The notes beneath the pieces are model-generated. The model worked only from the letters and a program-made list of their open reading frames with translations. It was not told the origin of the DNA and ran no database searches. Positions 3,450 through 44,635 of a stretch of DNA of 64,000 bases are shown in pieces. Location: the NCBI GenBank assembly GCA_902798745.1, contig CADBXM010000007.1, forward strand, positions 11,317 through 75,316, given 5' to 3'. The position numbers were made by a program, and so were the translations under genes. Source of the stretch: an uncultured Eubacteriales bacterium (GTDB lineage: Bacteria > Bacillota > Clostridia > Peptostreptococcales > Anaerovoracaceae). Numbering within the stretch: position 1 is the stretch's first letter; every line of letters begins with the position of its first letter.

Positions 3450-3640
3450 CTGAATACCCTTTCGTCTGTTTATCTCTGTGAAGAGAGATGCTTTTTTATA
3501 GTATAACAAATGACTCGAGCAATTGAAAACAAAAGACAAAGCGCACTTGATGAGAGAATGAGCTGTTTGACTGTAAAAAAAAAAAATAATATATATAATT
3601 AATAGGCATGAATTGCGAAGATAACGTCATTTCTCAGCAA

Positions 3641-3670
3641 TTGACTGTCTCCAAGTATAGAGAATATAAT
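3641..3670 (+). promoter_or_regulatory. Candidate sigma-70 promoter for the 3733 gene
   Basis: TTGACT (3641-3646), an 18-nt spacer, then TATAAT (3665-3670), about 63 nt upstream of the ATG. Confidence 0.35.
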
Positions 3671-4720: not shown

Positions 4721-6706
4721 ATGAGCCTATTCCGGAGAAGGGACAGAGACGAAAAACACAAAGGGGAAAAATCTCCCGGCACAGTAAGCACCGGCAAAGA
4801 AGCGGCTTTTTCGGAAGCATCGGAAAAGTCGGGCAGAACTGAAGCCGATCTGAAGGCAGAAGCGGAAGCGCTTGAAAGAGAATACGGAATCGCAGAGAAG
4901 CAGTATCTTGCAAAAGAGTACTATATGATGCCGAAAGAACGTATGCTCAAAGCCGCTAATAATGCTCGCCTTAGAGATCTTTATGTTCATAAAGTGGCTG
5001 AAGAGAACTCGTGGACAGTCAGCGAGGCGAGATCGGCAATCAAAGCAGCAGCGGAGAAATATGGAATAACGTACTCTGCTTACTACAAGCAAGGCTATTT
5101 CCATTACTACGGAGAAGACCAGGAACGTTTCCATGAGGAACGCATGAAAAAAAAGGAGCAGCAGGCTGAAGAAAAGGTTGACTGGGCAGAGGCATTGGCT
5201 GAAAGGACAGGCGTACCTAAAGAAGAAGCCGCGAGCAGACTCGCTACCGTAAAGGAAGAATACGGTGTGCTGCCGAAATTATATGTAAACAACAAATATT
5301 ATGAGCTCCCGGCGGCGGAAATGCTGGGCAGATATGCCAAGGACAGAAGAAAAGAAGCTGCAAAAGCCGAAATGTATAGGCTTATGGAGGAACTTTCAGG
5401 CAAGGGCATAAAGCAGGTCAGAGAAGAGCTCGCGCAGATCAGAAGTCTGGATCCGGGATTCAGAGTTAGTTTGAAGTGGTATTTCAGAAAAGGCGCTTAC
5501 ATGATCGACCCTGAAAATGACCGGGAAGAGCTGGAAAGACTGTTTGATCTCACACGAAGAGAGGAACAACTCGAGAACAGTCTGGAAGAAAGCTTCAACA
5601 AAATAGACAGCGGAGAGCTTACATACGAAGATATAAGTGGAACGCTTGAAGAATACCGCAAACTGACGGGCGAGACTATGGCAGAGGCTCGCAGGCGTCA
5701 AATCATCTTGAAGACAGGGAACTTTCTGAAGGATGTTGAAGGAGAAGAGCTGGACAAGCTGCTGATAGATATCGAATTCACTAACAGGGTCCTGAAATAT
5801 TTCCCTTCAGAATATGTAGCATTCAGATTCCGTGATAAGAGCATTCCGGAGAGAAGAGAATATGTCTCATCCCAGCTTCGCTGGCAGGTCATCAAGATCC
5901 TTAACAGCACTGAAGGCCTCGAGCTTCTTGACAGCAAGTACGATGCCTATCTCAGGGTTAAGCCTCTTTACAAAAGAGAAATAGTCCTCCTTAAGGCTTC
6001 AGACGGTTACGAGAAATTCCTGGAATACGCGAACACGCATAAGGTATTTGTAAAGAAAAACAACTACGACAGTCTTGGAAGAGGAGTGGAAAAGATCGAT
6101 CTGAACAAAAACGTTCCTCTGAAGACCGTCTACGAAGAGATGACCGCTGACAGCAAGCAGGTGATCCTGGAAGATCTTATTGTTCCGGCAGATGAGATCA
6201 GATCCCTGAATCCAGACTCCGTTAATACCGTAAGAATAATCGTCTTCCACAATGACGATGGGTTCGCTGTACAAGATACCTTCGCAAAGATAGGGCGAAA
6301 GGGATCATTTGTTGACAATGGAGGAGCCGGAGGGATCTTTGTTCATGTCAACAAAGATACGGGAGCCTTTGATTCGGACGGCACCGATGAAGAAGGCAGG
6401 ATCTACGAGGCACATCCAGATCACGGATATATCTTCAAAGAAAAAGCCTTCCCTCAGTGGGAAGATGCTTTAGAGACTGCCATCGCTGCCTCGCGATTGG
6501 TTCCCGAAGCAAATTATATCGGCTGGGACCTCACGTTCACAGAGGACAGAGAGTGGATCATAGTGGAAGGCAACTCAAAGACACAGTTCTTTGCACAGCA
6601 GATGACACTTGGCAGAGGAATAAAGGATGAATTCCTTGCCAAGACCCACTATATGGATCTCGTTTCAGAGACAGAAGAAGACGACGATGACGCAGAAGCA
6701 TATTAA
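4721..6706 (+). CDS. ATP-grasp protein of the 'sugar-transfer-associated' (ATPgrasp_ST-like) amidoligase type, with a long helical N-terminal region
   Basis: The C-terminal half reads LNPDSVNTVRIIVFH...GRKGSFVDNGGAGGIFVHVNKDTGAFDSDGTDEEGRIYEAHPDHG...FPQWEDA...NYIGWDLTFTEDREWIIVEGNSK, which is shared with the three paralogs downstream. There is no signal peptide or transmembrane helix, and the C-terminal tail is acidic. Confidence 0.75.
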   Translation: MSLFRRRDRDEKHKGEKSPGTVSTGKEAAFSEASEKSGRTEADLKAEAEALEREYGIAEKQYLAKEYYMMPKERMLKAANNARLRDLYVHKVAEENSWTVSEARSAIKAAAEKYGITYSAYYKQGYFHYYGEDQERFHEERMKKKEQQAEEKVDWAEALAERTGVPKEEAASRLATVKEEYGVLPKLYVNNKYYELPAAEMLGRYAKDRRKEAAKAEMYRLMEELSGKGIKQVREELAQIRSLDPGFRVSLKWYFRKGAYMIDPENDREELERLFDLTRREEQLENSLEESFNKIDSGELTYEDISGTLEEYRKLTGETMAEARRRQIILKTGNFLKDVEGEELDKLLIDIEFTNRVLKYFPSEYVAFRFRDKSIPERREYVSSQLRWQVIKILNSTEGLELLDSKYDAYLRVKPLYKREIVLLKASDGYEKFLEYANTHKVFVKKNNYDSLGRGVEKIDLNKNVPLKTVYEEMTADSKQVILEDLIVPADEIRSLNPDSVNTVRIIVFHNDDGFAVQDTFAKIGRKGSFVDNGGAGGIFVHVNKDTGAFDSDGTDEEGRIYEAHPDHGYIFKEKAFPQWEDALETAIAASRLVPEANYIGWDLTFTEDREWIIVEGNSKTQFFAQQMTLGRGIKDEFLAKTHYMDLVSETEEDDDDAEAY

Positions 6707-6747
6707 GGGCAGAAACTAGGAACAGAATCTAGAAACAAGGAGAAAGC

Positions 6748-9330
6748 ATGGCAAAAACATCATTTCTATGGAGGGTCGGTAGATCCATTAAGGCGATGAT
6801 AGCCAATGATGAGACGGCTAGCACAGAAAAAAGAATAGAATTCTCGAAGCAGCAGGTTGAGAAGCGAGATCAGAAAAAGAAACAGGGTTTCAAGCAAGCA
6901 GGTTATGAAAAAATGATGCAGGGCGTAGAACTCTCCAAGGACGATCTCAAGGACAAGGCTGATCACTTTAGGGATATGAACGTTGTTGGATTCAGCGTCT
7001 ATCGTTTCAGAGCATCAGGACTTTACAAGATGACTGACGAGGAGGCTTGCAAAAGGCTGAGCTTGATGAAGCAGTCAATACGACTTGACAAGGATCTCAG
7101 ATGGGACTTCAGGCTTCTTGATGAGGGCAAGCTTACATATGACGATGTCATGGAGAAAATCAATGACTTCAAATTGCTTGAGTCAGAGATAATGACCCCT
7201 GAGGCAAAAAGGGATATAGCAAACAAGGCAGGCTATCTTCACCCTGAGAATATGAGCGACGAGCAGATCAGCGATGTTGCGGTAGACATGGAGTTTACAA
7301 GGCGCATCCTCAGATATAGCCATAGCGGCTATGTATCGTTCCGCTTTTATGATAAGACGATCCCTGAAAGAAGAGAGTTCATATCAGGCAAAGAAAGATT
7401 GCTTCTGCTCAATACCATGAACACCGACGAAAGTATCGCGGTGCTTGACGACAAGCTGATGACATACGAGAAGCTGCGTGAGCATTATGGCCGCGACATG
7501 ATCAGTGTAGGGAGCGAGAAGGACTGGTTCAGGTTCAAAGCTTTCTTTGAAAACAACGATACAGGCGTAATAAAACCTCGCTTTGATTCCTTGGGCAAAG
7601 GCATCAAATTGCTGCGTAAATCCGATATGAGCAATATGCGGGAGACCTTCCTGGAGCTGATCGACGAGTACAGGCGATTCCTGATGGAGGGTTATATCAA
7701 CGCGGCTGAAGAGATCAAGGCGCTAAACCCGGATTCCGTAAACACGGTGCGTATAATCGCTTATTTCGATGGAAAAGATACATCGATCCGAAGCGCCTCA
7801 ATGAGGATAGGCAAGGCCGGCTCATTTGTTGACAACGCGGGAGCCGGAGGCATCACCGTTGCGATCGACAGGGAAACCGGAATGATCGACAGTGACGGCT
7901 GCGATGAAAACGGATTCATATACGATAAGCACCCTGATACAGGGATCACCTTCAAGGGTTACCAGCTGCCGGCTTGGGAGAAAGCTCTTGCGGTGGTTTA
8001 TGATGTGTCCGGAAAGATAGAAGGCGCGAAGTATGTAGGCTGGGATCTCGCATGCACTTCCGACCACGAGTGGGTCATTGTCGAGGCCAATGGTAAGACC
8101 GGATTCTTCGGCGCGCAGGCTCCTCATGACAAGGGACGCCGCAAAGAATTCCTCAACACCATAGGAGCTGATCCTAGAGGAGCTATACGTGATGAAGTGG
8201 TATTCAGGACCGCGGCGAGGATCGCGAAGAGATATGAGCTTGACGAAGAGGAGCTTGTGGAAAAGATAAGGCATTTCGAGTCTATGGGGCTTGATGGGCG
8301 CTGGTTTGAGGACAATTGCGCATGGGATCTTACCGATGACGAGATACTCGAGCTGAAAAAGGTCATTGAAGCCGATACAGAGGCCGGAGAAAAACGTGAT
8401 AGCGAAATGTTTGCGTCCATCTGCAGCACATCGGGTCTGGACGAGGATACTGTAAAGCACAAATATCATCTTGCTAAGCTGCATGGTTACGATGTGGATT
8501 GCTTCCTCACGAACGGGATCTATCTGCTGAGTGATGAAGACATCAAATCTCAGGTATTTTTCAACAGGGCAGATGGCATCACAAGATTCCAGCGAAGGCG
8601 CAAGGAAGAGGCTATGAATGCTTTACATTCCATGCTTGGGCTGTCATATGGGCGTTATAGTCTCAATGAAGCAGAAGCAGCTCTTAAATGTGGATGCTCG
8701 CTTGATGAGTACGTGTTATACGGCATTTATGACAAGAACGGGGACGAAGCTGCGGGATTCTGCACCAATGACTTTATGCGCAGGATATGGACAGCGAACG
8801 CAACCGGCTATGAGAGCAGCAGGAAATTGCTTGAGGAAAGGCATTCTGATGCCGGAGCTATGCCGTTCGGAGATCTTACTGATGAACTCGAGAGTATAAA
8901 GCTGAACGACCGGAAGAGACTCCATATCGTCACAGCTACGCAGGGTGGAAATACAGAAGTCGTAATGGCTGCCTTCAGCGAAGGAAGCGATCAGACATGG
9001 ACGGGAAAAGGATTCTCTGCGGGAGTAGATGTTGAGACCGGAAAGATCGAGACCGAAAGAGTCAATGGTTACGGAGAAAGATTTGAAGAACGCAGAAGTA
9101 AGGACGCATCCAAGGGGGATGATGTACCTCTCTGGAAAGAAGCTGCTTCTAAATGCACTTCAGAGGCGCAGAAATATCCGGAACTGACATTCATGAAATG
9201 GGAAGTGGATGTTACAGGAGATACTGCGGATCTGAAAGCGGCCGGTCCGGTGTTTGATGTACATGTCATACAGATGCCATATGCCTTTGAAGGCATTGGA
9301 TTAAGGAACAGATTCGAGAAATACCTTTAG
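6748..9330 (+). CDS. ATPgrasp_ST-like protein (long form: one intact ATP-grasp core plus a degenerate C-terminal second copy)
   Basis: AAGGAGA ribosome-binding site. Core: LNPDSVNTVRIIAYFDG...GSFVDNAGAGGITVAIDRETGMIDSDGCDE...KYVGWDLACTSDHEWVIVEANGKTGFFGAQ. The C-terminal stretch GFSAGVDVETGKIETERVNGYGERF... looks like a partial second core. Confidence 0.75.
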   Translation: MAKTSFLWRVGRSIKAMIANDETASTEKRIEFSKQQVEKRDQKKKQGFKQAGYEKMMQGVELSKDDLKDKADHFRDMNVVGFSVYRFRASGLYKMTDEEACKRLSLMKQSIRLDKDLRWDFRLLDEGKLTYDDVMEKINDFKLLESEIMTPEAKRDIANKAGYLHPENMSDEQISDVAVDMEFTRRILRYSHSGYVSFRFYDKTIPERREFISGKERLLLLNTMNTDESIAVLDDKLMTYEKLREHYGRDMISVGSEKDWFRFKAFFENNDTGVIKPRFDSLGKGIKLLRKSDMSNMRETFLELIDEYRRFLMEGYINAAEEIKALNPDSVNTVRIIAYFDGKDTSIRSASMRIGKAGSFVDNAGAGGITVAIDRETGMIDSDGCDENGFIYDKHPDTGITFKGYQLPAWEKALAVVYDVSGKIEGAKYVGWDLACTSDHEWVIVEANGKTGFFGAQAPHDKGRRKEFLNTIGADPRGAIRDEVVFRTAARIAKRYELDEEELVEKIRHFESMGLDGRWFEDNCAWDLTDDEILELKKVIEADTEAGEKRDSEMFASICSTSGLDEDTVKHKYHLAKLHGYDVDCFLTNGIYLLSDEDIKSQVFFNRADGITRFQRRRKEEAMNALHSMLGLSYGRYSLNEAEAALKCGCSLDEYVLYGIYDKNGDEAAGFCTNDFMRRIWTANATGYESSRKLLEERHSDAGAMPFGDLTDELESIKLNDRKRLHIVTATQGGNTEVVMAAFSEGSDQTWTGKGFSAGVDVETGKIETERVNGYGERFEERRSKDASKGDDVPLWKEAASKCTSEAQKYPELTFMKWEVDVTGDTADLKAAGPVFDVHVIQMPYAFEGIGLRNRFEKYL

Positions 9331-9347
9331 CCGCAGCCATCGCGGGG

Positions 9348-10250
9348 TCAGCCTTCAATTTTGATCACAGGAGCCCCGGTTGCTATCGGCGCCATATTAC
9401 CCTTATAAACAGCATAGAAAGAGGACTTTGATGATTTCCGCCAGCCGGTGAACACAAAGTTCTCTTTTTTAGGGACGATCGCATCCAGAGATTTTTCGCC
9501 ATCGATCCTTACGAGCATAGGCTCTTCACTGTTGTTGAGGTTCATGGTCACGTCAGAATCTTCTGCTATCTGCACTTTGTGTTTTTTGCCATCAGGGGTC
9601 GTATAAGTCACAGGAAAGGTGTAAGGATGCGGGCTTTCCACCACCACGACGGCATGCTTTCCCGGATTGATCAGTATGTCTCCGACAGCAAGATTATCGG
9701 AAGAGTGGATATATTTCTTTGATGTAAATTTATAGAACTGTCCGGTCGCTTCTATGTCAGTCGGCATATCTCGTGTCATCCAGAGTCTCGGGACATTGAT
9801 GCCGGCAGCATTGAGGCATACCGAGATAGCGCATGAGCACGTAGTCTCGCAGTTCTTTTTTATTGCAGAAACATCCCAGCCGGCCTTTTTGGCGGCATCG
9901 TAAAAAGTGCCGCGATCTTTGTCGTTCTGATCGTATCCGATGTGGTCATTATTGCATGCGTCTGCCATCGTCGCGGCAATGATGCGAGCTTTATCGGGGT
10001 CCTTGCATCTGTAGACATACTGCCAATGCTCTGATTGAAGTGCGATAGGGCTGTATTTCCATTTTGAGATCATCACTTCTTTCTTTGTCTGATCCCCGGC
10101 CTTGTTGTTTTTATAGGATTTTTCGCCCTTTCTGGCCTGTCCGTATTTGACATGCGAAGCTGCATAAGCCGGCGCAGGCAAAGCGGTCCCGAAAAAGGAG
10201 AATATAAGGAAGGCAGATACCACGATGACCAGCAGTTTGTTAAGCTTCAT
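9348..10250 (-). CDS. Secreted putative cysteine-type cell-wall hydrolase with a C-terminal 'FTGW' (Listeria-Bacteroides-type) repeat
   Basis: Signal peptide MKLNKLLVIVVSAFLIFSFFGTALPAPAYA. The motifs ...CETTCSCAISVCLNAAG... and ...VGDILINPGKHAVVVVE suggest a Cys/His papain-like arrangement. FVFTGWRKS lies near the C-terminus. A strong GGAGGAGG ribosome-binding site is present. The start overlaps the 3' end of the upstream gene by 11 nt. Confidence 0.45.
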   Translation of the reverse strand: MKLNKLLVIVVSAFLIFSFFGTALPAPAYAASHVKYGQARKGEKSYKNNKAGDQTKKEVMISKWKYSPIALQSEHWQYVYRCKDPDKARIIAATMADACNNDHIGYDQNDKDRGTFYDAAKKAGWDVSAIKKNCETTCSCAISVCLNAAGINVPRLWMTRDMPTDIEATGQFYKFTSKKYIHSSDNLAVGDILINPGKHAVVVVESPHPYTFPVTYTTPDGKKHKVQIAEDSDVTMNLNNSEEPMLVRIDGEKSLDAIVPKKENFVFTGWRKSSKSSFYAVYKGNMAPIATGAPVIKIEG

Positions 10251-11076
10251 CAGTCTCCTCCTCCCTTTCCTTGAACTTGCATGTTTCCGAAACTATCCTG
10301 TACTCGGTGACCTTATCCGAGGTGCCTATGAACCTGAGGTGCATGTTCTCATCGATATCGGCGTCAGTGATATAAACAGAAGACGTTTCTTTGACTTTTC
10401 CCGACGCATCAAGCAGCTCTACCTCCAAGTCCAGATATTCAATACCAAGTCCCGATTCGTTCTTCAGTTCAGCGTCATAATGGCTCACGTTGCCTTCGTC
10501 AGTCCTTTTGAACGAAAGGTTGTCTGTCGCATTGAGAAGCCACCCCTGAGCAAGGATATACGCAGACTCATCGGCATACTGTTTTTTGTCGGGTGTAAAA
10601 TGAAAGTCGCCATTATGCATTTTGTAGAGGACCTTCAGTCTGCGGCCGTAAGGCTCCGAGAAGGCGTTCCAGAATGCGTCCGGCTCTGTGGCAGGATCAT
10701 ATTGTGACGCCGCTTGCTGGCATGCCTTTATCGCCGAAATGTATTCGCTTGCGAGGCGGGAGAGCTCGTCATCTTTATAGTTCTTGTTCGCATATCTGGA
10801 AACAGCTTCCATTTCAATATCTATGAACGCTGTGTCTGTGATACGCCCGGTGGTCTGCAGCTGCAACTCATTAACGGGGAGGTCCCAGCCTTCATAAAGG
10901 GCGTACTCGACGCTTCTCGGGAAGCTCCTGTCTATGCTTGTCATAGTAAGCAGTGTGGCGACTTCGGCAGCGATGATGACGATAGAGACGAATATGACTA
11001 TTAAAAGAACGCGCCGCTTGGAAACGCGCTTCTTCTGTTGCTCTTCATATTCATTTTTATACCTGTCCATCCTCAT
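10240..11076 (-). CDS. N-terminally membrane-anchored protein of unknown function, co-transcribed with the 9348 hydrolase gene
   Basis: A basic N-terminus is followed by one transmembrane helix (VLLIVIFVSIVIIAAEVATLL) and an approximately 230-aa extracytoplasmic domain. A GGAGG ribosome-binding site is present. I recognised no known family. Confidence 0.55.
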   Translation of the reverse strand: MRMDRYKNEYEEQQKKRVSKRRVLLIVIFVSIVIIAAEVATLLTMTSIDRSFPRSVEYALYEGWDLPVNELQLQTTGRITDTAFIDIEMEAVSRYANKNYKDDELSRLASEYISAIKACQQAASQYDPATEPDAFWNAFSEPYGRRLKVLYKMHNGDFHFTPDKKQYADESAYILAQGWLLNATDNLSFKRTDEGNVSHYDAELKNESGLGIEYLDLEVELLDASGKVKETSSVYITDADIDENMHLRFIGTSDKVTEYRIVSETCKFKEREEETDEA

Positions 11077-11231
11077 TTAACGGATCAGACCTCCACTTTG
11101 TATGACTGCCCGGCAAACCTTGTCAGGCTTTGTTGCATCAGCTGTAATTATAGGAGATACCATGCGGACAAACAAGGTAAATTTATGCTTCTGAGACGAC
11201 AGTTTCGATTGGCGCCTGAGACCGCGGTCTG

Positions 11232-11260
11232 TTGATTTTGCATATGATACATATTAGAAT
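11232..11260 (+). promoter_or_regulatory. Candidate sigma-70 promoter for the 11324 ATP-grasp gene
   Basis: TTGATT (11232-11237), a 17-nt spacer, then TAGAAT (11255-11260). Confidence 0.35.
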
Positions 11261-11323
11261 ATATCATGAAGAAAAACGTAATCTGACAGGCTCCCAAGCA
11301 GGAGAAAATACGATAAAAACAAT

Positions 11324-12946
11324 ATGGCAAGAGTATCATGGCTCTGGAGAATAGGACGATCGGTGAAGGCGCTCTTCGTGAATGACGAGAAAGCCGGTAC
11401 AGCCGAGAGGATCGAATTTTCACAGAAGCAAGTAGACAGGCGTGACAGAAAAAAGAAAAGAGGCATAAAGCAGAGCGGATATGAAGAGATGATGCAGGAT
11501 TCCGGTCTGACGCAAAGCGAACTTGATGAAAAGCTCGCTCGTTTTCGTGCGATGGATATCACGCATCTTAGCTTCTACAGATTCAGGGCCAACGGCTTTT
11601 ATAAAATGACCGATGAAGAGGCTGCAGAAGCTCTTCGTGGTATGAAGAGATCAGTAGAGATCGAAGAGGATCTCAAGTGGGACTTCAGGCAGATCGATCT
11701 CGGTAAAAAGAGTTATGAGGAAGTGCAGCCACGAATAGATGAGCTGAAAGAGCTTGAATCGAGGCTCATGACGCCTGCGGCCAAGAAAGAGATCGCCATG
11801 AAGGCCGGGTATCTGCACCCTGAGGATATGAATGAGGAGCAGATCGACAATGTCGCGATGGACATGGAATTTACCAGGCGCATACTCAGGTACAGCCACA
11901 ATGGATATGTAGAATTCCACTTTTTCGAGAAGTCTATTCCCGAGAGGCGTGAATTCATAAACGGTCATGAGAGAAGGATGCTGCTCCCTCTGGTCAATAC
12001 AGATGAGAGTATCGCCATACTCGATGACAAGCTGATGACATATGAGCGCCTTAAGGACTGGTTTGGCCGCGATATGGTCAACATAGGCAGCGAGAAGGAC
12101 TGGTTCAGGTTCAAAGCGTTTTTCGATAACAACGAGACCGCTGTGATAAAGCCGAGGTTCGACTCCCTCGGCAAGGGCATAAAGCTGATCCGCAAGTCAG
12201 AGATAAAAAACATGCGCAAGACTTTTATCGAACTGATAGATGACTACCGCAGGTTCCTTATGGAAGGTTTCATCGATGCAGCCGATGAGATAAAGGCGCT
12301 CAATCCCGACTCGGTGAACACTGTGCGCATCATCGCGTACTACGATGGAAAAACCACATCGATCAGAAGCGCATCGATGAGGATAGGCAGGTCGGGATCT
12401 TTCGTGGATAACGCAGGTGCCGGAGGAATCACTGTTGCGATCGACAGGGAAACGGGAATGATCGACAGCGACGGCTGCGACGAGAGAGGCTTCAGATATG
12501 AAAAGCATCCCGATACCGGCATCAGATTCAAAGGCTATCAGCTGCCGAAATGGGACAAGGCCCTTGAGACGGTATATAACGTTGTGGACAAGATAGAAGG
12601 GGCCAAATATGTTGGTTGGGATCTTGCCTGCACTTCAGACTACAGATGGGTCATTGTAGAAGCTAACGGCAAGACCGGGTTCTTCGGAGCGCAGGCTCCT
12701 CACGACCTGGGACGACGCAGAGAATTCCTTAACACCATCGGAGCTGATCCAAAAGGCGCGCTATATGAAGAGGTGGCGCTTAAGATGGCGCAGAGAGTCA
12801 AGGAAGAATATGGCATTCCTGAAGAGGAGACCATGGAAAAACTAAGACACTTTGAATCGCTGGGTCTCGACGGTCGCTTGTTTGAGCGGAACCGCGCGTG
12901 GGAGCTCACGGATGAAGAGTGTATAAGCAGATTCAGCAAACTGTAA
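11324..12946 (+). CDS. ATPgrasp_ST-like protein (short form: ends after the first post-core helical module)
   Basis: The stretch GSFVDNAGAGGITVAIDRETGMIDSDGCDE is identical to the 6748 paralog. The conserved leader MARVSWLWRIGRSVK... is present. The protein has one ATP-grasp core. Confidence 0.75.
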   Translation: MARVSWLWRIGRSVKALFVNDEKAGTAERIEFSQKQVDRRDRKKKRGIKQSGYEEMMQDSGLTQSELDEKLARFRAMDITHLSFYRFRANGFYKMTDEEAAEALRGMKRSVEIEEDLKWDFRQIDLGKKSYEEVQPRIDELKELESRLMTPAAKKEIAMKAGYLHPEDMNEEQIDNVAMDMEFTRRILRYSHNGYVEFHFFEKSIPERREFINGHERRMLLPLVNTDESIAILDDKLMTYERLKDWFGRDMVNIGSEKDWFRFKAFFDNNETAVIKPRFDSLGKGIKLIRKSEIKNMRKTFIELIDDYRRFLMEGFIDAADEIKALNPDSVNTVRIIAYYDGKTTSIRSASMRIGRSGSFVDNAGAGGITVAIDRETGMIDSDGCDERGFRYEKHPDTGIRFKGYQLPKWDKALETVYNVVDKIEGAKYVGWDLACTSDYRWVIVEANGKTGFFGAQAPHDLGRRREFLNTIGADPKGALYEEVALKMAQRVKEEYGIPEEETMEKLRHFESLGLDGRLFERNRAWELTDEECISRFSKL

Positions 12947-12967
12947 AAGAGAGGAGACAGACCGGAA

Positions 12968-13402
12968 ATGACAATAGGATATACGACAGGAGTTTATGAT
13001 CTGTTCCACATAGGACATCTGAATCTTCTGAAAAACGCCAAGGGCATGTGTGACAAGCTCATAGTAGGCGTGACGGTGGACGAACTTGTCGAGTACAAGG
13101 GCAAACAGGCAATGATCCCGTTTGAGGACAGGATAGAGATCGTCAGGAGCATCAAATACGTAGACGCGGCGGTCCCTCAGTATGACATGGACAAGCTTGC
13201 TGCATGCAAAAAGCTTGGAGCAACATACCTCTTTGTCGGCGATGACTGGTATGCCACAGAGAAATGGCAGGAATACGAGAAAGAATTCAACAAAGAAGGT
13301 ATCAAGATCATCTACTTCCCTTACACAAAGGGCGTATCCTCGACAAAGATATCGGAAGCGTTGAAGGCGGTCCGCAAGTCTTCTCTGCAGGATGTGAAAT
13401 AA
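12968..13402 (+). CDS. tagD: Glycerol-3-phosphate cytidylyltransferase
   Basis: GYTTGVYDLFHIGHLNLLKNAK (HxGH motif) and YTKGVSSTKI (RTxGISTT-like motif). The protein is 144 aa. A GAGAGGAGA ribosome-binding site is present. Confidence 0.85.
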   Translation: MTIGYTTGVYDLFHIGHLNLLKNAKGMCDKLIVGVTVDELVEYKGKQAMIPFEDRIEIVRSIKYVDAAVPQYDMDKLAACKKLGATYLFVGDDWYATEKWQEYEKEFNKEGIKIIYFPYTKGVSSTKISEALKAVRKSSLQDVK

Positions 13403-13418
13403 ACTCAAGGAGAGCCGG

Positions 13419-14456
13419 ATGACAGTCGACCCTGTTTATTGCGCAAGCTCGTTCTTTCAATTCAGGATGATAGAAGACGACGATCACATATTTGCGCCGG
13501 GTGTTTACCCGCGCCGTTTTGACATACCCGAAGGAAGGACTCCCGTGCACGACAGCACAGAGCTTGAGGTAGCGCTCAAGGCATCCGTAGACAAAGATCT
13601 TAAGAGCGGAAAATGCGCGCTTATGCTGAGCAGCGGCATAGACTCAGCCATACTGGCTCGTATGATGCCGCGCGGCACCAAGGCTTACACACTGAGATGC
13701 TGCGCTCCGGGAGCTGTCGATGAGACGTCCCAGGCAGCGCGCTACGCCGAGATATGCGGTCTCGACCATGAGATAATAGACATCACATGGGACGATTATG
13801 TCAGATATACACCGGGGCTTCTCAGACATATGGGGCAGCCTGTGCATTCCATAGAGCCCCAGATACATAAGGCGGCTCTTACAGCAAAAGCTGCCGGCTA
13901 TGATACGCTGATCTTCGGCGAGACGGCCGATATTATATACGGCGGACACAGCATACAGCTTTGCAGAGAATTTGAGCTGGACGAGTACATAGTTTATCAC
14001 AATTTCATAGATCCGCGAGTAGTACTGAAAGAAGGCGTCATAATAAGGGAACCTTACGAAAGACATTTTGTGAACGGCAGGATGGACGTATACGGTTTTC
14101 TGAACGATGTGCATCTGAGGCAGTCGCCTAATTCGTATGTCGACGCATGTTCTCTTGCGGATATCAGATTCTCGGCGCCTTATCTCACTACGGAACTGGC
14201 GGCTCCTCTCGACCTTGCCCGTATCCGCGCAGGTGAAAACAAGTACCTTGTCAGAGAGTTGTTCCACAGGCTCTATCCCGATATGGGGCAGCCGAAGAAA
14301 CTCCCTATGCCACGGGCGCTGGAACAGTGGATGGCGGATTATCCGGGGGCATCGAGGCCCGAGTTTTATCCCGGAGCGGGAAGGGATATGAGCCCCGACC
14401 AGAAATGGTACGTTTACATAACTGAAATGTTTATGAACATGGTATTGGACAAATAG
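13419..14456 (+). CDS. Asparagine-synthetase-C-terminal-domain-like (PP-loop adenylating) enzyme without a glutaminase domain
   Basis: ALMLSSGIDSAILARMM is an SGGxDS-type PP-loop. The 345-aa length leaves no room for the N-terminal Ntn glutaminase domain. An AAGGAGA ribosome-binding site is present. Confidence 0.55.
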   Translation: MTVDPVYCASSFFQFRMIEDDDHIFAPGVYPRRFDIPEGRTPVHDSTELEVALKASVDKDLKSGKCALMLSSGIDSAILARMMPRGTKAYTLRCCAPGAVDETSQAARYAEICGLDHEIIDITWDDYVRYTPGLLRHMGQPVHSIEPQIHKAALTAKAAGYDTLIFGETADIIYGGHSIQLCREFELDEYIVYHNFIDPRVVLKEGVIIREPYERHFVNGRMDVYGFLNDVHLRQSPNSYVDACSLADIRFSAPYLTTELAAPLDLARIRAGENKYLVRELFHRLYPDMGQPKKLPMPRALEQWMADYPGASRPEFYPGAGRDMSPDQKWYVYITEMFMNMVLDK

Positions 14457-14488
14457 CTCAAAGCAGGTCCTTTACCGGGGAGACGGAA

Positions 14489-17308
14489 ATGGCAAAAACG
14501 TCACTGCTTTGGAGAATAGGGAGATCAGCCAAAGATGCCTTGTTCGATATTGAAAGAGCCGGCACGGAAAAGCGGATAAAATTCTCTCGGAAGCAGGTAA
14601 AGAGAAGAGACAGCAAAAAGAAGAAACGGATCGATGATGCCGGGTTCGAGCTCATGACCGCAGACAGCGGTCTCACAAGGAAAGAGCTCGAGGACAAGGC
14701 TTCTCAATTCCGTACTTTTGGCATATGTGATTTCAGCAATTACGAATTCAGGGCGTATGGCCTGTACAAAATGGACGATGAGCAGGCGAAGAAAACGCTC
14801 GCTTTTAAGAAGTCTGCGGATCAGCTCGAAGAAGACCTGAACTGGGATTTCAGACTTATCGATTTCGGCAAACTGACATATGAGGACGTGTCTGACAAGA
14901 TACAGCAGTTCAAGGACAATGTATCCCATCTCCTCACTATGGACGCCAAGAAGGAGGTCGCGCTCAAGGCCGGATACCTTCATCCAGAAAACATGAGCGA
15001 TGAAGAAATCGACGATCTCGTAAGAGATATGGAATTCACAAGGTGCATACTTCAGTTTGGTCACGGGGAATATGCAAGGTTCCATTTTAAGGATAAGTCG
15101 ATCATCGAAAGGCGTGGATTCGTTTCTGACCGCGAAAGGAACCGACTGCTGTCCGCTGTCAATAGTGATACGAGCATAGCCGTGTTCGATGACAAGATGA
15201 TGACGTATGAAAAGCTGTCTGAGTTCTACGGACGCGATATGATAAGCGTCAACAGCGAGAAAGATTATTTCAAGTTCAGAAACTTCTTTGAAAAAAACGA
15301 AAAGGCTGTTATTAAACCGAGATTTGATTCGCTCGGCAAAGGAATAAAACTGATCAATAGGTCGGAGATCGACAACTACGGTAAATATTTTCTTGGACTC
15401 GTTGATGAATACCGTCGCTTTCTCATGGAGGGATTCATCGAAGCTGCCGATGAGATCAAAACGCTCAATCCCGATTCCGTCAACACAGTACGTGTGATCG
15501 CTTACTATGACGGGAAGAATACATCGATCAGAAACAGCTCCATGAGAATAGGGCACGCCGGATCCTTTGTGGATAACGCGGGCGCCGGAGGGATCACAGT
15601 CTCCGTGGACAAGGAAACCGGAGTCATCAATAGCGACGGATGTGATGAGAATGGTTTCAGATATGAAAAACATCCCGACACAGGAGTCACACTGAAGGGA
15701 TATCAGCTGCCGGCGTGGGACAAAGCCCTTGAAGTGGTTTACGCAGTGTCGGGAAGGATAGAAGGAGCCAGGTATGTCGGCTGGGACCTTGCCTGCACAG
15801 CAGACCATGAATGGGTGTTAGTAGAGGCAAACGGAAAGACAGGCTTCTTCGGAGCGCAGGCACCTTACGGTAAGGGGAGAAGAAGTGAGCTCCTTGAGAC
15901 GATAGGCGCAGATCCGAGGGGAGAACTATACAACGAGGTAGCCCGCAGGATGGCAAAGAAAGTTCGCGATGCGAACAAGATACCTGTAGAAGAGACCATG
16001 GACAGACTCTCGCACTTTGAGAGCCTTGGTTTGGACGGACGCTATTACAGGCCATATCGCGCGTGGGAACTCAGCGACGCGGAGTGCCTTGAACTAAAAG
16101 AGGCGCTTGAAGGAAGAGAAGCATACGGAAAGAAGAGAGAGCAGGACGTCTGCAGGCTGATATCCGCTAAATACGGACTCGATGAAGAGGATGTGAGAAG
16201 AAAGTACAGACTTGCTCTGAAGGAAGGATATAAAGAATTCTGGTTCCTTGCCGACGGCATCTTTATGCTGACAGATGATGAGATAAAGGCTCATACACAT
16301 CTTCGGGTCTCAGAAGCCGAAGATGACTGGGAAAGAGATAAGAAAAAGAAGCTGAACGAGATAAAAAAGAAAATCAGGGAGAAAAAACACTGGAGCAAAG
16401 GAAAGTACTCGCTTGAACAGTTGAAAGCCCGCAATAATTGCGGATGCGCCGCGGATGAGTTCATCGTTATGAGGATGTATGACAGATCCCCTGAAGAAGC
16501 TCGAAAATTCATCACGGCCGAAGTCAAGCACAAAGCATGGCTGATAAACGCCTGCACATATGAAGACAGCATGAAGCTTCGCAGCAAGATCAGCTTCAGC
16601 GATACCTTCAGCGAGTTTACGGATCGCATAGTTTTCTCCAACAGAGACATATCGCTTGATGACTTCGAAGAAAAGATCAAAGGCTTGGAGCAAATCGTCT
16701 ATAAGCCTGAAGAGGGCGACAAAGGCCTGGGAATTAAACGGTTCCATGTTAATGGCGCTCCGGAGGAAAACAAGGCGGTTTATGAGTCGCTGATGTCTCT
16801 GGAGCCGGGCGTTGTAGAAGAGTTTCTCTATCAGCATCCGGATATGGCCGCATTCTATCCTGATGCAGTCAATACAGTCAGAGTTATCACCGCTCTTAAG
16901 GACGACAAAGCGTGCGTTGTGATGGCGGCGCTTAGGACCGGGCGATATGGGAACACGGACAACTGGTCGCAGGGAGGCTTGTCTGCAGGGATCAACGTAA
17001 AGACAGGGACGATCGAGACCGACGGAGTGGATCAATACGGAGAGCGCTATGCAGATCATCCGGTGACCGGAAAAACATTCTTTGGCGCTAAGATACCCGA
17101 ATGGGATAAAATAGAAAGAAATTGTTGCGAGGCGGCAAGAAAGTGTCCGGACATCCCGCTTATTGGCTGGGATGCTGCTGTGCTGAGAGACGGGAGAGTC
17201 GTTCTTATCGAAGGAAATCTGTCGTTTGGAACTAAATCGATACAGACTCCGTTTTCTCTGGCTGATGTCGGCCTGAGGGAGCGCTTTGAGCAGTTCCTGC
17301 AGCAGTAA
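14489..17308 (+). CDS. ATPgrasp_ST-like protein with two apparently intact ATP-grasp cores
   Basis: Core 1: LNPDSVNTVRVIAYYDG...GSFVDNAGAGGITVSVDKETGVINSDGCDE...RYVGWDLACTADHEWVLVEANGKTGFFGAQ. Core 2: YPDAVNTVRVITALKD...NWSQGGLSAGINVKTGTIETDGVDQYGERYADHPVTG...IPEWDK...LIGWDAAVLRDGRVVLIEGN. Confidence 0.75.
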   Translation: MAKTSLLWRIGRSAKDALFDIERAGTEKRIKFSRKQVKRRDSKKKKRIDDAGFELMTADSGLTRKELEDKASQFRTFGICDFSNYEFRAYGLYKMDDEQAKKTLAFKKSADQLEEDLNWDFRLIDFGKLTYEDVSDKIQQFKDNVSHLLTMDAKKEVALKAGYLHPENMSDEEIDDLVRDMEFTRCILQFGHGEYARFHFKDKSIIERRGFVSDRERNRLLSAVNSDTSIAVFDDKMMTYEKLSEFYGRDMISVNSEKDYFKFRNFFEKNEKAVIKPRFDSLGKGIKLINRSEIDNYGKYFLGLVDEYRRFLMEGFIEAADEIKTLNPDSVNTVRVIAYYDGKNTSIRNSSMRIGHAGSFVDNAGAGGITVSVDKETGVINSDGCDENGFRYEKHPDTGVTLKGYQLPAWDKALEVVYAVSGRIEGARYVGWDLACTADHEWVLVEANGKTGFFGAQAPYGKGRRSELLETIGADPRGELYNEVARRMAKKVRDANKIPVEETMDRLSHFESLGLDGRYYRPYRAWELSDAECLELKEALEGREAYGKKREQDVCRLISAKYGLDEEDVRRKYRLALKEGYKEFWFLADGIFMLTDDEIKAHTHLRVSEAEDDWERDKKKKLNEIKKKIREKKHWSKGKYSLEQLKARNNCGCAADEFIVMRMYDRSPEEARKFITAEVKHKAWLINACTYEDSMKLRSKISFSDTFSEFTDRIVFSNRDISLDDFEEKIKGLEQIVYKPEEGDKGLGIKRFHVNGAPEENKAVYESLMSLEPGVVEEFLYQHPDMAAFYPDAVNTVRVITALKDDKACVVMAALRTGRYGNTDNWSQGGLSAGINVKTGTIETDGVDQYGERYADHPVTGKTFFGAKIPEWDKIERNCCEAARKCPDIPLIGWDAAVLRDGRVVLIEGNLSFGTKSIQTPFSLADVGLRERFEQFLQQ

Positions 17309-19013: not shown

Positions 19014-19021
19014 GGCCATAA

Positions 19022-21698: not shown

Positions 21699-21705
21699 TT
21701 TTCTA

Positions 21706-23966: not shown

Positions 23967-24065
23967 TACTAATAAACTAAAAACTGTTACAGGCGCCGGA
24001 GAATCAATCAAAGAATACTTTTGATTAGGTTACCGGCGCTTGTTGACCATTAAGACAAAGCAAAA

Positions 24066-43577: not shown

Positions 43578-43591
43578 TTCATGCTCCTTAA

Positions 43592-44551: not shown

Positions 44552-44635
44552 CAACAACTCCTCGATTTCTGATAATATAAGTATTATAGCATGAAAGATT
44601 ATAAAAAACGATAAATGAGCAGTGGGAGGAACATC

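What the first reader, a model, noticed from the sequence alone, without database searches (positions are those of the whole stretch)
4721..17308. Array of four paralogous 'sugar-transfer-associated' ATP-grasp proteins inside a teichoic-acid locus
What the sequence shows:
- The ORFs at 4721-6706, 6748-9330, 11324-12946 and 14489-17308 all carry the same core: LNPDSVNTVR.I...GSFVDN.GAGGI...D..TG...SDG.DE.G..Y..HPD.G......P.W......(Y)(I/V)GWDL......W(I/V)(I/L)VE.N.
- I recognise this core as the ATPgrasp_ST / RimK-related amidoligase type.
- The 30-aa stretch GSFVDNAGAGGITVAIDRETGMIDSDGCDE is identical in two of the paralogs, and the three 'MAKTS'-type copies are very similar by eye over more than 300 aa.
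- None has a signal peptide or a transmembrane helix.
- They are interleaved with tagD, an AsnB-like adenylating enzyme, a secreted hydrolase pair and LicD/TagGH.

Established knowledge: this ATP-grasp clade has been predicted from comparative genomics to ligate amino acids or amines onto surface glycopolymers, and ATP-grasp amidoligases decorate capsular uronic acids in Campylobacter. As far as I know, no multi-copy array in a teichoic-acid cluster has been characterised.

Inference: the array may be a combinatorial amide or peptide decoration system for an anionic wall polymer, functionally analogous to D-alanylation.
Basis: partly seen in the sequence, partly recalled or inferred. Interest (0 to 1): 0.75.

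Follow-up and report, generated by a model that had tools for sequence, protein, structure and literature searches.

The report
Amino-acid ligase array in teichoic-acid locus
A gut or rumen Gram-positive bacterium carries four genes, encoding five working ATP-dependent amino-acid-ligase domains, inside a cell-wall polymer export locus; they probably attach a short peptide-like decoration to the polymer, a chemistry nobody has yet demonstrated for this enzyme family.

Summary
The four ORFs at the stated coordinates all match Pfam ATPgrasp_ST (E 4e-37 to 4e-87). An AlphaFold model (pLDDT 90) is closest to RimK, LysX/ArgX and Ddl.

- G4 has a second intact ATP-grasp domain.
- G2 ends in a degenerate half-domain.
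- The five active domains fall into three old classes, each with orthologs in other genomes.

All four genes are under strong purifying selection. The array is conserved in Anaerovoracaceae and Mogibacterium MAGs, with 3 to 6 copies. There it is always embedded in a cassette of LicD, a TagD-like cytidylyltransferase and an AsnB-like enzyme without a glutaminase domain, next to an ABC-2 exporter. The LicD/TagF–TagD–AsnB cassette also occurs widely without the ATP-grasps.

UDP-sugar dehydrogenases are nearly absent around this family (2 of 71 loci), so the Campylobacter uronic-acid analogy is weak. That enzyme also belongs to a different Pfam family.

Most likely, the ligases work in the cytoplasm and build a peptide or aminoacyl decoration stepwise on the phosphodiester-linked head group of a glycerol-phosphate wall polymer, an amidation caps it, and the polymer is then exported. 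Substrates remain unknown. I found no experimental characterisation of any family member.

The parts
390..2119 (+). TarI-like (IspD family, 390-1100) and TarJ-like (zinc ADH, 1094-2119) genes; probable CDP-ribitol supply.
   Evidence: Pfam IspD E 7e-43; ADH_N and ADH_zinc_N. The same pair lies upstream of the array in L008.
2100..3539 (-). GT2 glycosyltransferase, 479 aa.
   Evidence: Pfam Glycos_transf_2 E 5e-35. GT2 is the second commonest neighbour of ATPgrasp_ST genes (18 of 71 loci).
3641..3670 (+). Best sigma-70-like promoter match in the first 20 kb, upstream of the Amidase_6-G1-G2 operon.
   Evidence: TTGACT-18-TATAAT, 11 of 12 positions. This is a consensus match only; the total number of such sites is not above the shuffle expectation.
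3733..4680 (+). Secreted, very cationic (net +37) Amidase_6-domain protein; first gene of the operon.
   Evidence: Pfam Amidase_6 E 1e-5, 26.1 bits against a 23.2 cutoff. N-terminal hydrophobic signal sequence and charge. An ortholog sits next to the array in L001, L002, L008 and L012. dN/dS 0.09.
4721..6706 (+). G1, a class B ATP-grasp ligase. Residues 1-340 are helical and contain 3-4 copies of a ~45-aa repeat. Residues 341-655 (nt 5741-6685) are the ATPgrasp_ST core.
   Evidence: PF14397 E 4e-37. 33 of 34 family-invariant residues kept, including the K/E/R/D/E/N set. Class B orthologs occur in L001, L002, L008, L022 and L046. Repeats. dN/dS 0.05.
6748..9330 (+). G2, a class A ATP-grasp ligase: N-terminal extension aa 1-170, active core aa 171-480, helical linker, then a degenerate C-terminal half-domain.
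   Evidence: PF14397 E 3e-45. All 34 invariant residues kept in the core. 70% identical to G3.
8668..9327 (+). Degenerate second ATP-grasp half-domain of G2 (aa 641-860). The ATP-binding N half is missing and the metal-ligand positions are changed (D to E, E to A, N to P).
   Evidence: 33% identical to G4 aa 797-937. PF14397 only 12.8 bits. Residue table. Still constrained: dN/dS 0.17.
9348..10250 (-). Secreted endolysin-like-domain (ELLD) protein.
   Evidence: PF25309 E 3e-46. Signal-like N terminus. Present only in the window and in L001/L007.
10240..11076 (-). Single-pass membrane protein of unknown function, co-oriented with and overlapping the ELLD gene.
   Evidence: No Pfam family. A weak FxLYD match. 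One TM-like segment at aa 17-41.
11324..12946 (+). G3, a class A ATP-grasp ligase and the minimal form: N-terminal extension 1-170, core 171-480, one C-terminal helical repeat.
   Evidence: PF14397 E 3e-44. AF2 model pLDDT 90.4. Foldseek top hits ArgX, RimK, LysX and Ddl. dN/dS 0.06.
12968..13402 (+). TagD-like cytidylyltransferase (HxGH present). The phospho-alcohol substrate is not established.
   Evidence: PF01467 E 1e-21. TIGR01518 scores 88 bits against a cutoff of 165. 67.5 bits to S. aureus TarD 2B7L; 46.8 + 24.1 bits to human ethanolamine-P cytidylyltransferase. 98% identical to the L001 ortholog.
13419..14456 (+). AsnB-like carboxylate-adenylating amide synthetase. It has the synthetase domain only (no glutaminase domain), with PP-loop SSGIDS.
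   Evidence: PF00733 E 5e-16. AF2 pLDDT 95.4. Foldseek top hits carbapenam synthetase, E. coli AsnB and beta-lactam synthetase. Adjacent to the TagD-like gene, or a few genes away in the same module, in all 11 loci examined.
14489..17308 (+). G4, a fusion of two ATP-grasp ligases. The class A domain is aa 171-480 (nt 14999-15928). The class C domain is aa 631-939 (nt 16379-17305). A helical repeat linker joins them.
   Evidence: PF14397 E 4e-87 with two stretches. Both domains keep the catalytic set; the class C domain differs at 6 of 34 invariant positions. Class C orthologs are standalone in L022 and fused to class B in L046. dN/dS 0.07.
17347..18183 (+). LicD-family phosphotransferase; transfers a phospho-alcohol from a CDP donor.
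   Evidence: PF04991 E 9e-40. Weak match to fukutin-related protein 6KAJ.
18210..19846 (+). TagG/TagH-like ABC-2 exporter: permease 18210-19013 and ATPase 19022-19846.
   Evidence: Six TM-like segments. Weak KpsM/Wzm NCBIfam matches. ABC_tran E 4e-11. Counterparts in L002 and L005 hit PF01061.
34596..36931 (+). Pair of TagF-like CDP-glycerol glycerophosphotransferases, probably the primase and polymerase of the same polymer.
   Evidence: PF04464 E 5e-51 and 4e-110. Both are 75% identical to the pair immediately downstream of the ATP-grasp/LicD module in L002.

Best explanation
The four genes encode five active ATP-grasp ligase domains of the RimK/LysX type, in three ancient classes:
- Class A: G2, G3 and the N-terminal domain of G4.
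- Class B: G1.
- Class C: the C-terminal domain of G4.

They are add-ons to a conserved three-gene cassette. In that cassette a TagD-like cytidylyltransferase makes a CDP-activated phospho-alcohol. LicD transfers this as a phosphodiester-linked head group onto a lipid-linked wall glycopolymer; in the relative L002 a TagF-like pair sits next to the module. A glutaminase-less AsnB-like enzyme converts a carboxylate to an amide.

**Proposed mechanism.** The system works in the cytoplasm. Each ATP-grasp phosphorylates a carboxylate to an acyl-phosphate, and an amine then attacks it. One class handles each successive step, so a short peptide or aminoacyl side chain is built on or next to the LicD-installed head group. 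The AsnB-like enzyme caps a remaining carboxylate as a carboxamide. The TagGH-like ABC-2 transporter exports the finished polymer. Outside the cell, the cationic secreted Amidase_6 and ELLD proteins bind or trim it.

**Shown.** Family, fold and retention of the family-invariant (presumed catalytic) residues; three classes with orthologs; fusions between classes; purifying selection; cytoplasmic location; conserved gene neighbourhood.

**Inferred.** That the target is the glycopolymer head group; that the classes act in sequence; the direction of chain growth; the identity of the amino acids; the role of the AsnB-like enzyme.
For: **Family, fold and residues.**
- PF14397 hits are far above cutoff.
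- The AF2 model of G3 (pLDDT 90.4) is closest to ArgX/LysX, RimK and Ddl. These amino-acid ligases act through acyl-phosphates.
- Five domains keep the family-invariant K276, E314, R335, D433, E446 and N448.

**Classes and fusions.**
- Three classes, each with orthologs in other genomes, plus A-C and B-C fusions, point to distinct cooperating steps rather than redundancy.
- dN/dS is 0.05-0.09 for all four genes against the 66-89% identical orthologs in L001.
- There is no recent gene conversion: nucleotide identity is 64-69% and the longest identical run is 29 nt.

**Location and operon structure.**
- No TM segment or signal peptide.
- Tight operon spacing with Shine-Dalgarno-like sites.

**Conserved module.**
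- The module of at least 3 ATPgrasp_ST genes, TagD-like, AsnB-like, LicD and an ABC-2 exporter recurs in Anaerovoracaceae, Mogibacterium and other MAGs.
- The LicD/TagF-TagD-like-AsnB-like cassette is contiguous in 5 of 5 distant AsnB-like loci. It has 0 or 1 ATPgrasp_ST genes there, so the ligases are an extension of that cassette.
- The AsnB-like model matches AsnB, beta-lactam synthetase and carbapenam synthetase, all carboxylate adenylation followed by amide formation.
- The TagF-like pair is linked to the module in L002 and present in the window.

**Family-wide neighbours.** All are consistent with amino acids being joined to glycans: other ATP-grasp ligases (21 of 71 loci), Mur-ligase-like proteins (16), DegT sugar aminotransferases (16), initiating sugar transferases, Wzx/Wzy, PGA_cap, and a ThrRS-like paralog.
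Against: - No substrate is identified, and no PF14397 member has been characterised in the literature I could search.
- The locus shows no obvious source of a polymer-borne carboxylate or amine. There is no UDP-sugar dehydrogenase and no sugar aminotransferase within 1-20 kb.
- What the AsnB-like enzyme acts on is unknown, even in the simpler cassettes.
- The TagD-like enzyme is below the equivalog cutoff for glycerol-3-phosphate cytidylyltransferase.
- Context-based prediction has already failed for a related family. The TupA-like ATP-grasp CfmP, predicted to decorate polysaccharide, was found to act on the fimbrial protein FimA (PMC12632600).
- The class tree is a simple NJ tree without support values.
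- dS is saturated, so the dN/dS values are approximate.
Confidence: 0.5

Rival explanations
1. The ligases act on the soluble precursor, not on the polymer. They build an amino-acid-bearing phospho-alcohol or CDP-linked head group, which LicD then transfers ready-made.
For: - ATP-grasp genes are interleaved directly with the TagD-like and AsnB-like genes (G3-TagD-AsnB-G4-LicD).
- The compact Mogibacterium module has no glycosyltransferase within 10 kb.
- In L078 the same position holds a TagD-oxidoreductase fusion plus an aminotransferase, which are clearly precursor-making enzymes.
Against: - The nearest structural relatives, RimK and LysX/ArgX, act on a macromolecule-borne carboxylate.
- The large helical extensions and class fusions look like scaffolding for a polymer-bound or membrane-proximal assembly.
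- Nothing distinguishes the two options directly.
Confidence: 0.2
2. The enzymes amidate a uronic-acid or other sugar carboxylate with small amines, like the Campylobacter jejuni Cj1438 C-terminal amidoligase. The copies would reflect different amines.
For: - Cj1438C is an ATP-grasp that forms glucuronamides in a capsule (PMC11800379).
- GT2-ATPgrasp_ST fusions with the same layout as Cj1438 exist (P0073).
Against: - Cj1438C is TupA-like (PF14305). The window proteins give no PF14305 hit at E <= 0.01.
- A UDP-sugar dehydrogenase signature occurs in only 2 of 71 ATPgrasp_ST loci, and not in this window's locus.
- This does not explain the three conserved classes and the tandem fusions.
Confidence: 0.08
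3. The enzymes add homopolymeric tails, such as poly-Glu or poly-Asp, processively as RimK does. The result would be a teichuronopeptide-like glycan-polypeptide copolymer rather than a defined short peptide.
For: - RimK is among the top structural matches.
- PGA_cap (CapA-like) and Mur-ligase/CapB-like genes accompany ATPgrasp_ST arrays in other loci.
- Teichuronopeptide of Bacillus halodurans is a precedent (PMC8153356).
Against: - No PGA_cap or Mur-ligase-like gene lies in this locus.
- One processive enzyme would suffice, yet three classes are conserved.
- RimK family models score far below cutoff.
Confidence: 0.1
4. The targets are not glycopolymers. They would be proteins (RimK- or CfmP-like modification) or peptidoglycan precursors (D-Asp-ligase-like cross-bridge synthesis followed by AsnH-like amidation).
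For: - RimK, LysX and ArgX modify proteins.
- CfmP shows that context prediction can mislead (PMC12632600).
- An ATP-grasp ligase paired with an AsnB-like amidating enzyme is reminiscent of lactococcal AslA/AsnH (my own knowledge, not tested here).
- Secreted cell-wall hydrolase-like genes lie in the locus.
Against: - Linkage to LicD, the TagD-like gene and an ABC-2 exporter is constant across genomes.
- No candidate carrier or substrate protein is conserved in the module.
- No Mur or Fem genes are nearby.
Confidence: 0.07

Closest known systems
Pfam PF14397 ATPgrasp_ST ('sugar-transfer associated ATP-grasp'; predicted family of Iyer et al. 2009, cited in PMC12632600)
   Same: All four proteins match above the gathering score. 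They have the ATP-grasp fold, and they sit in a surface-glycan locus.
   Different: Typical members are 330-420 aa, core only. The window proteins add three things:
- a 170-aa N-terminal helical extension, found in only 9 cluster representatives among 1.84 billion proteins;
- ~45-aa helical repeats;
- tandem-domain fusions and a degenerate domain.

The family has no characterised member that I could find.
RimK, LysX/ArgX and Ddl (ATP-grasp amino-acid ligases with solved structures)
   Same: They are the best structural matches: Foldseek E 1e-8 to 1e-6, TM-score normalised to target about 0.55. They share the acyl-phosphate chemistry and the GG-loop and Mg-ligand motifs.
   Different: Sequence identity is only 14-17%. 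NCBIfam RimK-type models score 16-70 bits against cutoffs of 143-314. The pre-ATP-grasp domain is replaced by helices. The genomic context is different.
Cj1438 C-terminal amidoligase of Campylobacter jejuni HS:2 capsule (TupA-like ATP-grasp, PF14305) and TupA of Bacillus halodurans teichuronopeptide
   Same: These are ATP-grasp enzymes that put amide-linked groups on surface glycopolymers. GT2 fusions exist in both families (PMC11800379, PMC8153356).
   Different: They belong to a different Pfam family, with no PF14305 hit here. They use a uronate carboxylate, and uronate-forming genes are nearly absent around ATPgrasp_ST. They occur as a single enzyme rather than a multi-class array.
Dlt D-alanylation of teichoic acids
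   Same: The likely outcome is the same: amino-acid substituents that change the charge of an anionic wall polymer.
   Different: The machinery is unrelated (adenylation enzyme, carrier protein, MBOAT) and acts after export. The system here is cytoplasmic, uses ATP-grasp enzymes and acts before export. No dlt gene was seen in the window.
AsnB-family amide synthetases acting on glycoconjugate or peptide carboxylates (E. coli AsnB, beta-lactam synthetase, carbapenam synthetase; MoeH5 is cited in PMC12632600 as a moenomycin-pathway enzyme, and that it is AsnB-like is my own recollection)
   Same: The 345-aa partner protein has the AsnB synthetase fold and a PP-loop.
   Different: It lacks the glutaminase domain. 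It forms its own large family, always next to a TagD-like gene. No sequence relative is in the PDB.

Membership tests
Pfam PF14397 ATPgrasp_ST | HMM score above the curated gathering threshold (31.4 bits) | tested here: met
   128.2, 155.2, 151.8 and 292.4 bits for G1-G4; two stretches in G4.
Pfam PF14397 ATPgrasp_ST | ATP-grasp fold | tested here: met
   AF2 model of G3 with pLDDT 90.4. 376 PDB matches at E <= 1e-3; all 50 listed are ATP-grasp enzymes.
Pfam PF14397 ATPgrasp_ST | Family-invariant (presumed ATP- and Mg-binding) residues retained: Lys, Glu, Arg, Asp, Glu, Asn | tested here: met
   K276, E314, R335, D433, E446 and N448 (G3 numbering) are present in five domains. They are lost in the G2 C-terminal remnant.
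Pfam PF14397 ATPgrasp_ST | Association with sugar-transfer or surface-polysaccharide genes | tested here: met
   LicD, GT2, an ABC-2 exporter and TarI/J-like genes in the window. The same holds across 71 loci.
Pfam PF14397 ATPgrasp_ST | Amidoligase activity on a glycan-linked substrate | not testable with these tools
   This needs enzyme assays. No characterised member was found in the literature.
TupA-like ATP-grasp PF14305 (Cj1438C, TupA, CfmP) | HMM match to PF14305 | tested here: not met
   PF14305 is not among the Pfam hits at E <= 0.01 for any of the four proteins.
RimK family (TIGR00768) / RimK-related Glu ligase (TIGR02291) | Score above the NCBIfam cutoff | tested here: not met
   TIGR00768 scores 16-17 bits against 143. 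TIGR02291 scores 28-70 bits against 314.
Wall teichoic acid (ABC-exported polyol-phosphate polymer) locus | CDP-polyol synthesis genes (TagD/TarD; TarI/TarJ) | tested here: inconclusive
   IspD-type and ADH-type TarI/J-like genes are present. The TagD-like gene is present but below the TIGR01518 cutoff (88 against 165 bits), and it is nearly as close to ethanolamine-P cytidylyltransferase.
Wall teichoic acid (ABC-exported polyol-phosphate polymer) locus | TagF/TarL-type polyol-phosphate polymerase (PF04464) | tested here: met
   There is none within 1-20 kb. A pair lies at 34596-36931 (E 5e-51 and 4e-110) and is 75% identical to the pair contiguous with the module in L002.
Wall teichoic acid (ABC-exported polyol-phosphate polymer) locus | TagG/TagH-type ABC-2 exporter | tested here: met
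   A six-TM permease and an ABC ATPase at 18210-19846.
Wall teichoic acid (ABC-exported polyol-phosphate polymer) locus | Linkage-unit enzymes TagO, TagA, TagB | not tested
   None appeared among the ORFs I annotated. ORFs between 26.8 and 34.5 kb were not scanned.

The most novel reading that the evidence does not exclude
The widespread cassette of LicD (or TagF), a TagD-like cytidylyltransferase and a glutaminase-less AsnB-like enzyme installs a three-carbon phospho-head group that carries a carboxylate. For example, phosphoglycerate could be activated as CDP-glycerate and normally capped as phosphoglyceramide. In this lineage, the three classes of ATP-grasp ligase insert amino acids one by one onto that carboxylate before the AsnB-like cap. 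Growth would run N to C, as with Mur ligases. The product would be a 'stem peptide' on a teichoic acid, a wall-polymer chemistry not described so far.

Precedents exist only in parts:
- CDP-glycerate is made by the non-homologous CpgD (PMC12275187).
- D-glyceramide 2-phosphate occurs on the Providencia alcalifaciens O22 antigen (cited in PMC6222762).
Probability: 0.15. Interest if true: 0.8.

Novelty: new variant of a known kind. Interest (0 to 1): 0.55.

Why it matters
Secondary wall polymers of gut and rumen Firmicutes shape phage adsorption, immune recognition and cation binding. Their chemistry is almost unexplored.

ATPgrasp_ST is a large family that was predicted in 2009 and, as far as I could find, never tested. 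This locus and its compact Mogibacterium version give a defined, conserved and apparently functional gene set in which to test it:
- three ligase classes;
- a cytidylyltransferase;
- an AsnB-like amide synthetase;
- LicD;
- an exporter.

If the model is right, it would show a cytoplasmic, ATP-grasp-based route to peptide-decorated teichoic acids, distinct from Dlt D-alanylation. It would also assign a function to the very common LicD/TagD-like/AsnB-like cassette.

Tried and rejected
**Non-functional or recently duplicated copies.** Rejected. dN/dS is 0.05-0.09 against the L001 orthologs. Nucleotide identity between paralogs is only 64-69%, with no long identical tracts, so the identical 30-aa stretch reflects active-site constraint rather than gene conversion.

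**Uronic-acid amidation as the general role of the family.** A motif scan for UDP-sugar dehydrogenase found it in 2 of 71 loci. This was a regular-expression test, so divergent enzymes could be missed.

**Known domains in the N-terminal extension, linkers and tails.** None in Pfam even at E <= 10. An exhaustive HMMER search of the first 170 aa found only 9 representatives; the full-length ones (492-1026 aa) are the size of ATP-grasp proteins and two are known PF14397 members, but the others were not domain-checked.

**Sequence search of the PDB.** Nothing significant with the family profile (best hit TTLL7, E 0.087). Nothing with the AsnB-like protein.

**Literature searches.**
- Nothing for ATPgrasp_ST or PF14397.
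- No characterised PF14397 member turned up for ATP-grasp with teichoic acid, LicD or TagD, cps loci, or O-antigen amides.
- The 2009 Iyer et al. paper and the 2022 Cj1438 amidoligase paper are not held.

**Assigning the TagD-like substrate from sequence.** Inconclusive.

**Promoter and terminator scans.** Counts equal the shuffle expectation. Only the 11-of-12 site at 3641-3670 is worth noting.


Full report
**1. The observation**

I call them G1 (4721-6706, 661 aa), G2 (6748-9330, 860 aa), G3 (11324-12946, 540 aa) and G4 (14489-17308, 939 aa). Each matches Pfam PF14397 ATPgrasp_ST, with E-values from 4e-37 to 4e-87 against a gathering score of 31.4 bits. NCBIfam gives only weak, sub-threshold matches to RimK-type glutamate ligases.

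- G2, G3 and G4 are 55-70% identical over their first 534 or more residues. G1 is 35-37% identical to them over about 375-430 residues.
- The quoted core motif is in all four. The 30-residue stretch is identical in G2 and G3.
- None has a hydrophobic segment that could be a signal peptide or TM helix.

**2.

G4 has two complete ATPgrasp_ST domains, at aa 171-480 and 631-939. G2 ends in a remnant of the same second domain (aa 641-860, 33% identical to the G4 C-terminus).

An alignment of 38 family members has 34 invariant columns.
- The class A cores of G2, G3 and G4 keep all 34.
- G1 keeps 33.
- The G4 C-terminal domain keeps 28.
- All five keep K276, E314, R335, D433, E446 and N448 (G3 numbering).
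- The G2 remnant lacks the N-terminal half altogether and has D to E, E to A and N to P at the three metal-ligand positions.

So there are five presumably active domains and one degenerate one. The degenerate domain is still under constraint (dN/dS about 0.17). That suggests a structural or regulatory role rather than decay.

**3. Fold**

An AlphaFold2 model of G3, built on that alignment, has mean pLDDT 90.4. Foldseek against the PDB returns only ATP-grasp enzymes among the listed hits. The top ones are ArgX/LysX, RimK and D-Ala-D-Ala ligases, with E 1e-8 to 1e-6 and target-normalised TM-score about 0.55. A profile search of PDB sequences finds nothing significant, so the family has no solved structure.

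The ATP-grasp core occupies residues ~170-480. The first 170 residues and the last 60 are helical.
- The N-terminal extension has no Pfam match.
- In an exhaustive search of 1.84 billion representatives it recurs in only 9 proteins, which are ATP-grasp-sized proteins (two of them known family members) or short fragments.
- Within it, and in the G1 N-terminus, the G2 and G4 linkers and the G3 tail, a weak ~45-residue helical repeat recurs. Its function is unknown. Scaffolding or docking between the ligases is a guess.

**4. The organism and conservation of the array**

The closest genome is an Anaerovoracaceae MAG (JAZQBC010000026.1, 89% identity to G3). Other relatives are Mogibacterium, Lachnospiraceae and unclassified Bacillota MAGs, many of them from ruminant or other herbivore gut samples.

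| Locus | Content |
|---|---|
| Anaerovoracaceae MAG (L001/L007) | Same gene order as the window, but six ATPgrasp_ST genes |
| Mogibacterium MAG (L005) | Compact module: ATP-grasp, TagD-like, AsnB-like, ATP-grasp, ATP-grasp, long LicD, ABC-2 permease, ABC ATPase |
| L002 | Three ATP-grasps with the same partners, several GT2s, and two TagF-like enzymes |

A neighbour-joining tree of 72 core domains puts the window's domains in three clades, each with orthologs elsewhere:
- Class A: G2, G3 and the G4 N-terminal domain.
- Class B: G1.
- Class C: the G4 C-terminal domain.

Classes are found fused in different combinations: A-C in G4, and B-C in a 974-aa protein of L046.

Against the L001 orthologs, all four genes have dN/dS of 0.05-0.09 (dS is saturated, so these are rough). 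The paralogs share only 64-69% nucleotide identity and show no conversion tracts. Together this argues for old, functionally distinct and cooperating enzymes.

**5. The cassette underneath**

The 345-aa protein next to the TagD-like gene has the AsnB synthetase domain with a PP-loop but no glutaminase domain. Its model (pLDDT 95.4) matches carbapenam synthetase, E. coli AsnB and beta-lactam synthetase. It belongs to a family of more than 1000 proteins.

I looked at five distant members (44-47% identical) on long contigs.
- In every case the gene sits directly beside a ~140-aa TagD-like gene, with LicD or a TagF-like transferase alongside or within about 1 kb. These lie inside Wzx/Wzy- or ABC-type polysaccharide loci.
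- An ATPgrasp_ST gene follows it in one locus, is a fragment in one, and is absent in three.
- All six ATPgrasp_ST loci with the AsnB-like gene also have the TagD-like gene and LicD.

The ATP-grasp array is therefore an elaboration of a conserved three-gene cassette that presumably makes and installs a phosphodiester-linked head group.

The TagD-like enzyme has the HxGH motif. It scores below the equivalog cutoff for glycerol-3-phosphate cytidylyltransferase (88 against 165 bits). It is nearest to S. aureus TarD, but not far from ethanolamine-phosphate cytidylyltransferase.

**6. Is it a teichoic-acid locus?**

Largely yes.
- TarI- and TarJ-like genes, a GT2, LicD and a TagGH-like exporter flank the array.
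- There is no TagF-type polymerase within 20 kb. A pair does lie at 34.6-36.9 kb. Both are 75% identical to the pair that directly follows the ATP-grasp/LicD module in L002.

This link supports a glycerol-phosphate polymer and, most simply, CDP-glycerol as the TagD-like product.

**7. Family-wide context**

I compared 71 non-redundant loci. Arrays of 3-6 core-only ATPgrasp_ST genes are common in Oscillospiraceae, Lachnospiraceae and Ruminococcus MAGs.

| Neighbour of ATPgrasp_ST genes | Loci (of 71) |
|---|---|
| A second kind of ATP-grasp ligase | 21 |
| GT2 | 18 |
| Mur-ligase-domain protein with LRRs | 16 |
| DegT-type sugar aminotransferase | 16 |
| Initiating sugar transferase | 16 |
| LicD | 14 |
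| Ornithine-cyclodeaminase-like enzyme | 9 |

Wzx and Wzy are also frequent.

Single examples add two more:
- PGA_cap.
- A ThrRS-like paralog together with a TagD-oxidoreductase fusion and an aminotransferase.

A UDP-sugar dehydrogenase signature appears in only 2 of the 71 loci.

So the family is tied to amino-acid and amine chemistry on surface glycans, but not to uronic acids. The window proteins do not match that family.

**8. Mechanism**

ATP-grasp ligases phosphorylate a carboxylate and let an amine, or sometimes a hydroxyl, attack the acyl-phosphate. This is established knowledge of the superfamily.

The evidence in hand is:
- a cytoplasmic location;
- an exporter at the end of the operon;
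- three conserved classes;
- fusions between classes;
- an AsnB-like partner.

From this, I think the most likely reading is stepwise construction of a short peptide or aminoacyl side chain on or next to the LicD-installed head group of a lipid-linked glycerol-phosphate polymer. The AsnB-like enzyme would amidate a carboxylate, and TagGH-like export would follow (confidence about 0.5).

Several things are not known:
- which partner carries the carboxylate;
- which amino acids are used;
- whether the work is done on the polymer or on the CDP-linked precursor.

The secreted Amidase_6 protein (net charge +37; conserved beside the array in four loci) and the ELLD protein may bind or trim the product. 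That is speculation.

A caution comes from a TupA-like ATP-grasp that was predicted from context to decorate polysaccharide and was found to act on a fimbrial protein (PMC12632600).

**9. The most novel reading**

The position next to the TagD-like gene holds different nitrogen-introducing enzymes in different loci: an oxidoreductase plus an aminotransferase in L078, and the AsnB-like enzyme here. The head group may therefore be a three-carbon glycolytic derivative.

If it is phosphoglycerate, the sequence would be as follows. The cassette alone would give phosphoglyceramide. The ATP-grasps would insert amino acids on the glycerate carboxylate before the amide cap.

CDP-glycerate (PMC12275187, made by a non-homologous enzyme) and D-glyceramide 2-phosphate on an O-antigen (cited in PMC6222762) show the pieces exist in nature. 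Nothing here tests this, and the linkage to TagF-like enzymes argues for ordinary CDP-glycerol. I give it about 0.15.

**10. Verdict**

- The proteins are true members of a known, uncharacterised family, with an unusual architecture and a newly recognised cassette context. I rate this a new variant of a known kind, of moderate to good interest, because it offers a compact, testable system.

Noticed in passing
window 42630-58966: There is a second cell-wall glycopolymer region. It holds two GT2s, an epimerase, an ATP-grasp_4 ligase (45539-46660), an Acyl_transf_3 protein, a TagF-like enzyme (48985-50283), a YidC-like + sulfatase/LtaS-like fusion (50296-53079) and a YfhO-like protein. It also holds a TagD-GFO/IDH/MocA fusion (56553-57881) followed by a class I/II aminotransferase (57899-58966). 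The last pair resembles the pair in L078 and could make a CDP-linked amino-alcohol such as serinol phosphate. That would be a possible amine partner for the ligases.
   Followed up: partly
L079-L083 (and window 12968-14456 plus 17347-18183): A contiguous cassette of LicD (or TagF-like), a ~140-aa TagD-like cytidylyltransferase and a ~345-aa AsnB-like protein without a glutaminase domain recurs in diverse polysaccharide loci, with or without ATPgrasp_ST. Its product is unknown.
   Followed up: partly
window 19982-21737 (- strand): An RsgI-like anti-sigma factor (with a PepSY domain) and its sigma factor lie directly after the exporter. They are conserved in the same place in L001. They may regulate the locus.
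   Followed up: no
L076, L077, and 16 of 71 ATPgrasp_ST loci: In other genomes, ATPgrasp_ST arrays travel with PGA_cap (CapA-like) genes and with a ~620-aa Mur-ligase-domain protein that carries BspA-type leucine-rich repeats. This unusual domain pair may also point to peptide building on glycans.
   Followed up: no
L078 2709-4454: A ThrRS-like paralog (tRNA_SAD, tRNA-synt_2b, anticodon-binding domain) sits between the ABC exporter and three ATPgrasp_ST genes. It may be an amino-acid supplier or simply a housekeeping gene.
   Followed up: no
L082 9913-10194: A 93-aa ORF with a faint ATPgrasp_ST match lies downstream of the LicD/TagD-like/AsnB-like cassette. It is possibly a decayed ligase gene, which would suggest the ATP-grasp add-on is gained and lost.
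   Followed up: no
window 9348-11076 (- strand): The ELLD gene and the membrane-protein gene lie on the opposite strand and split the ATP-grasp operon in two. They occur only in the window and its closest relative, and are absent from L002 and L005. This looks like a lineage-specific insertion.
   Followed up: partly
window 22500-26543 and 59073-60320: Other envelope genes are present: a protein with a weak BspA-type LRR match, a large S8 subtilase (24066-26543), and a YkuD-type L,D-transpeptidase.
   Followed up: no
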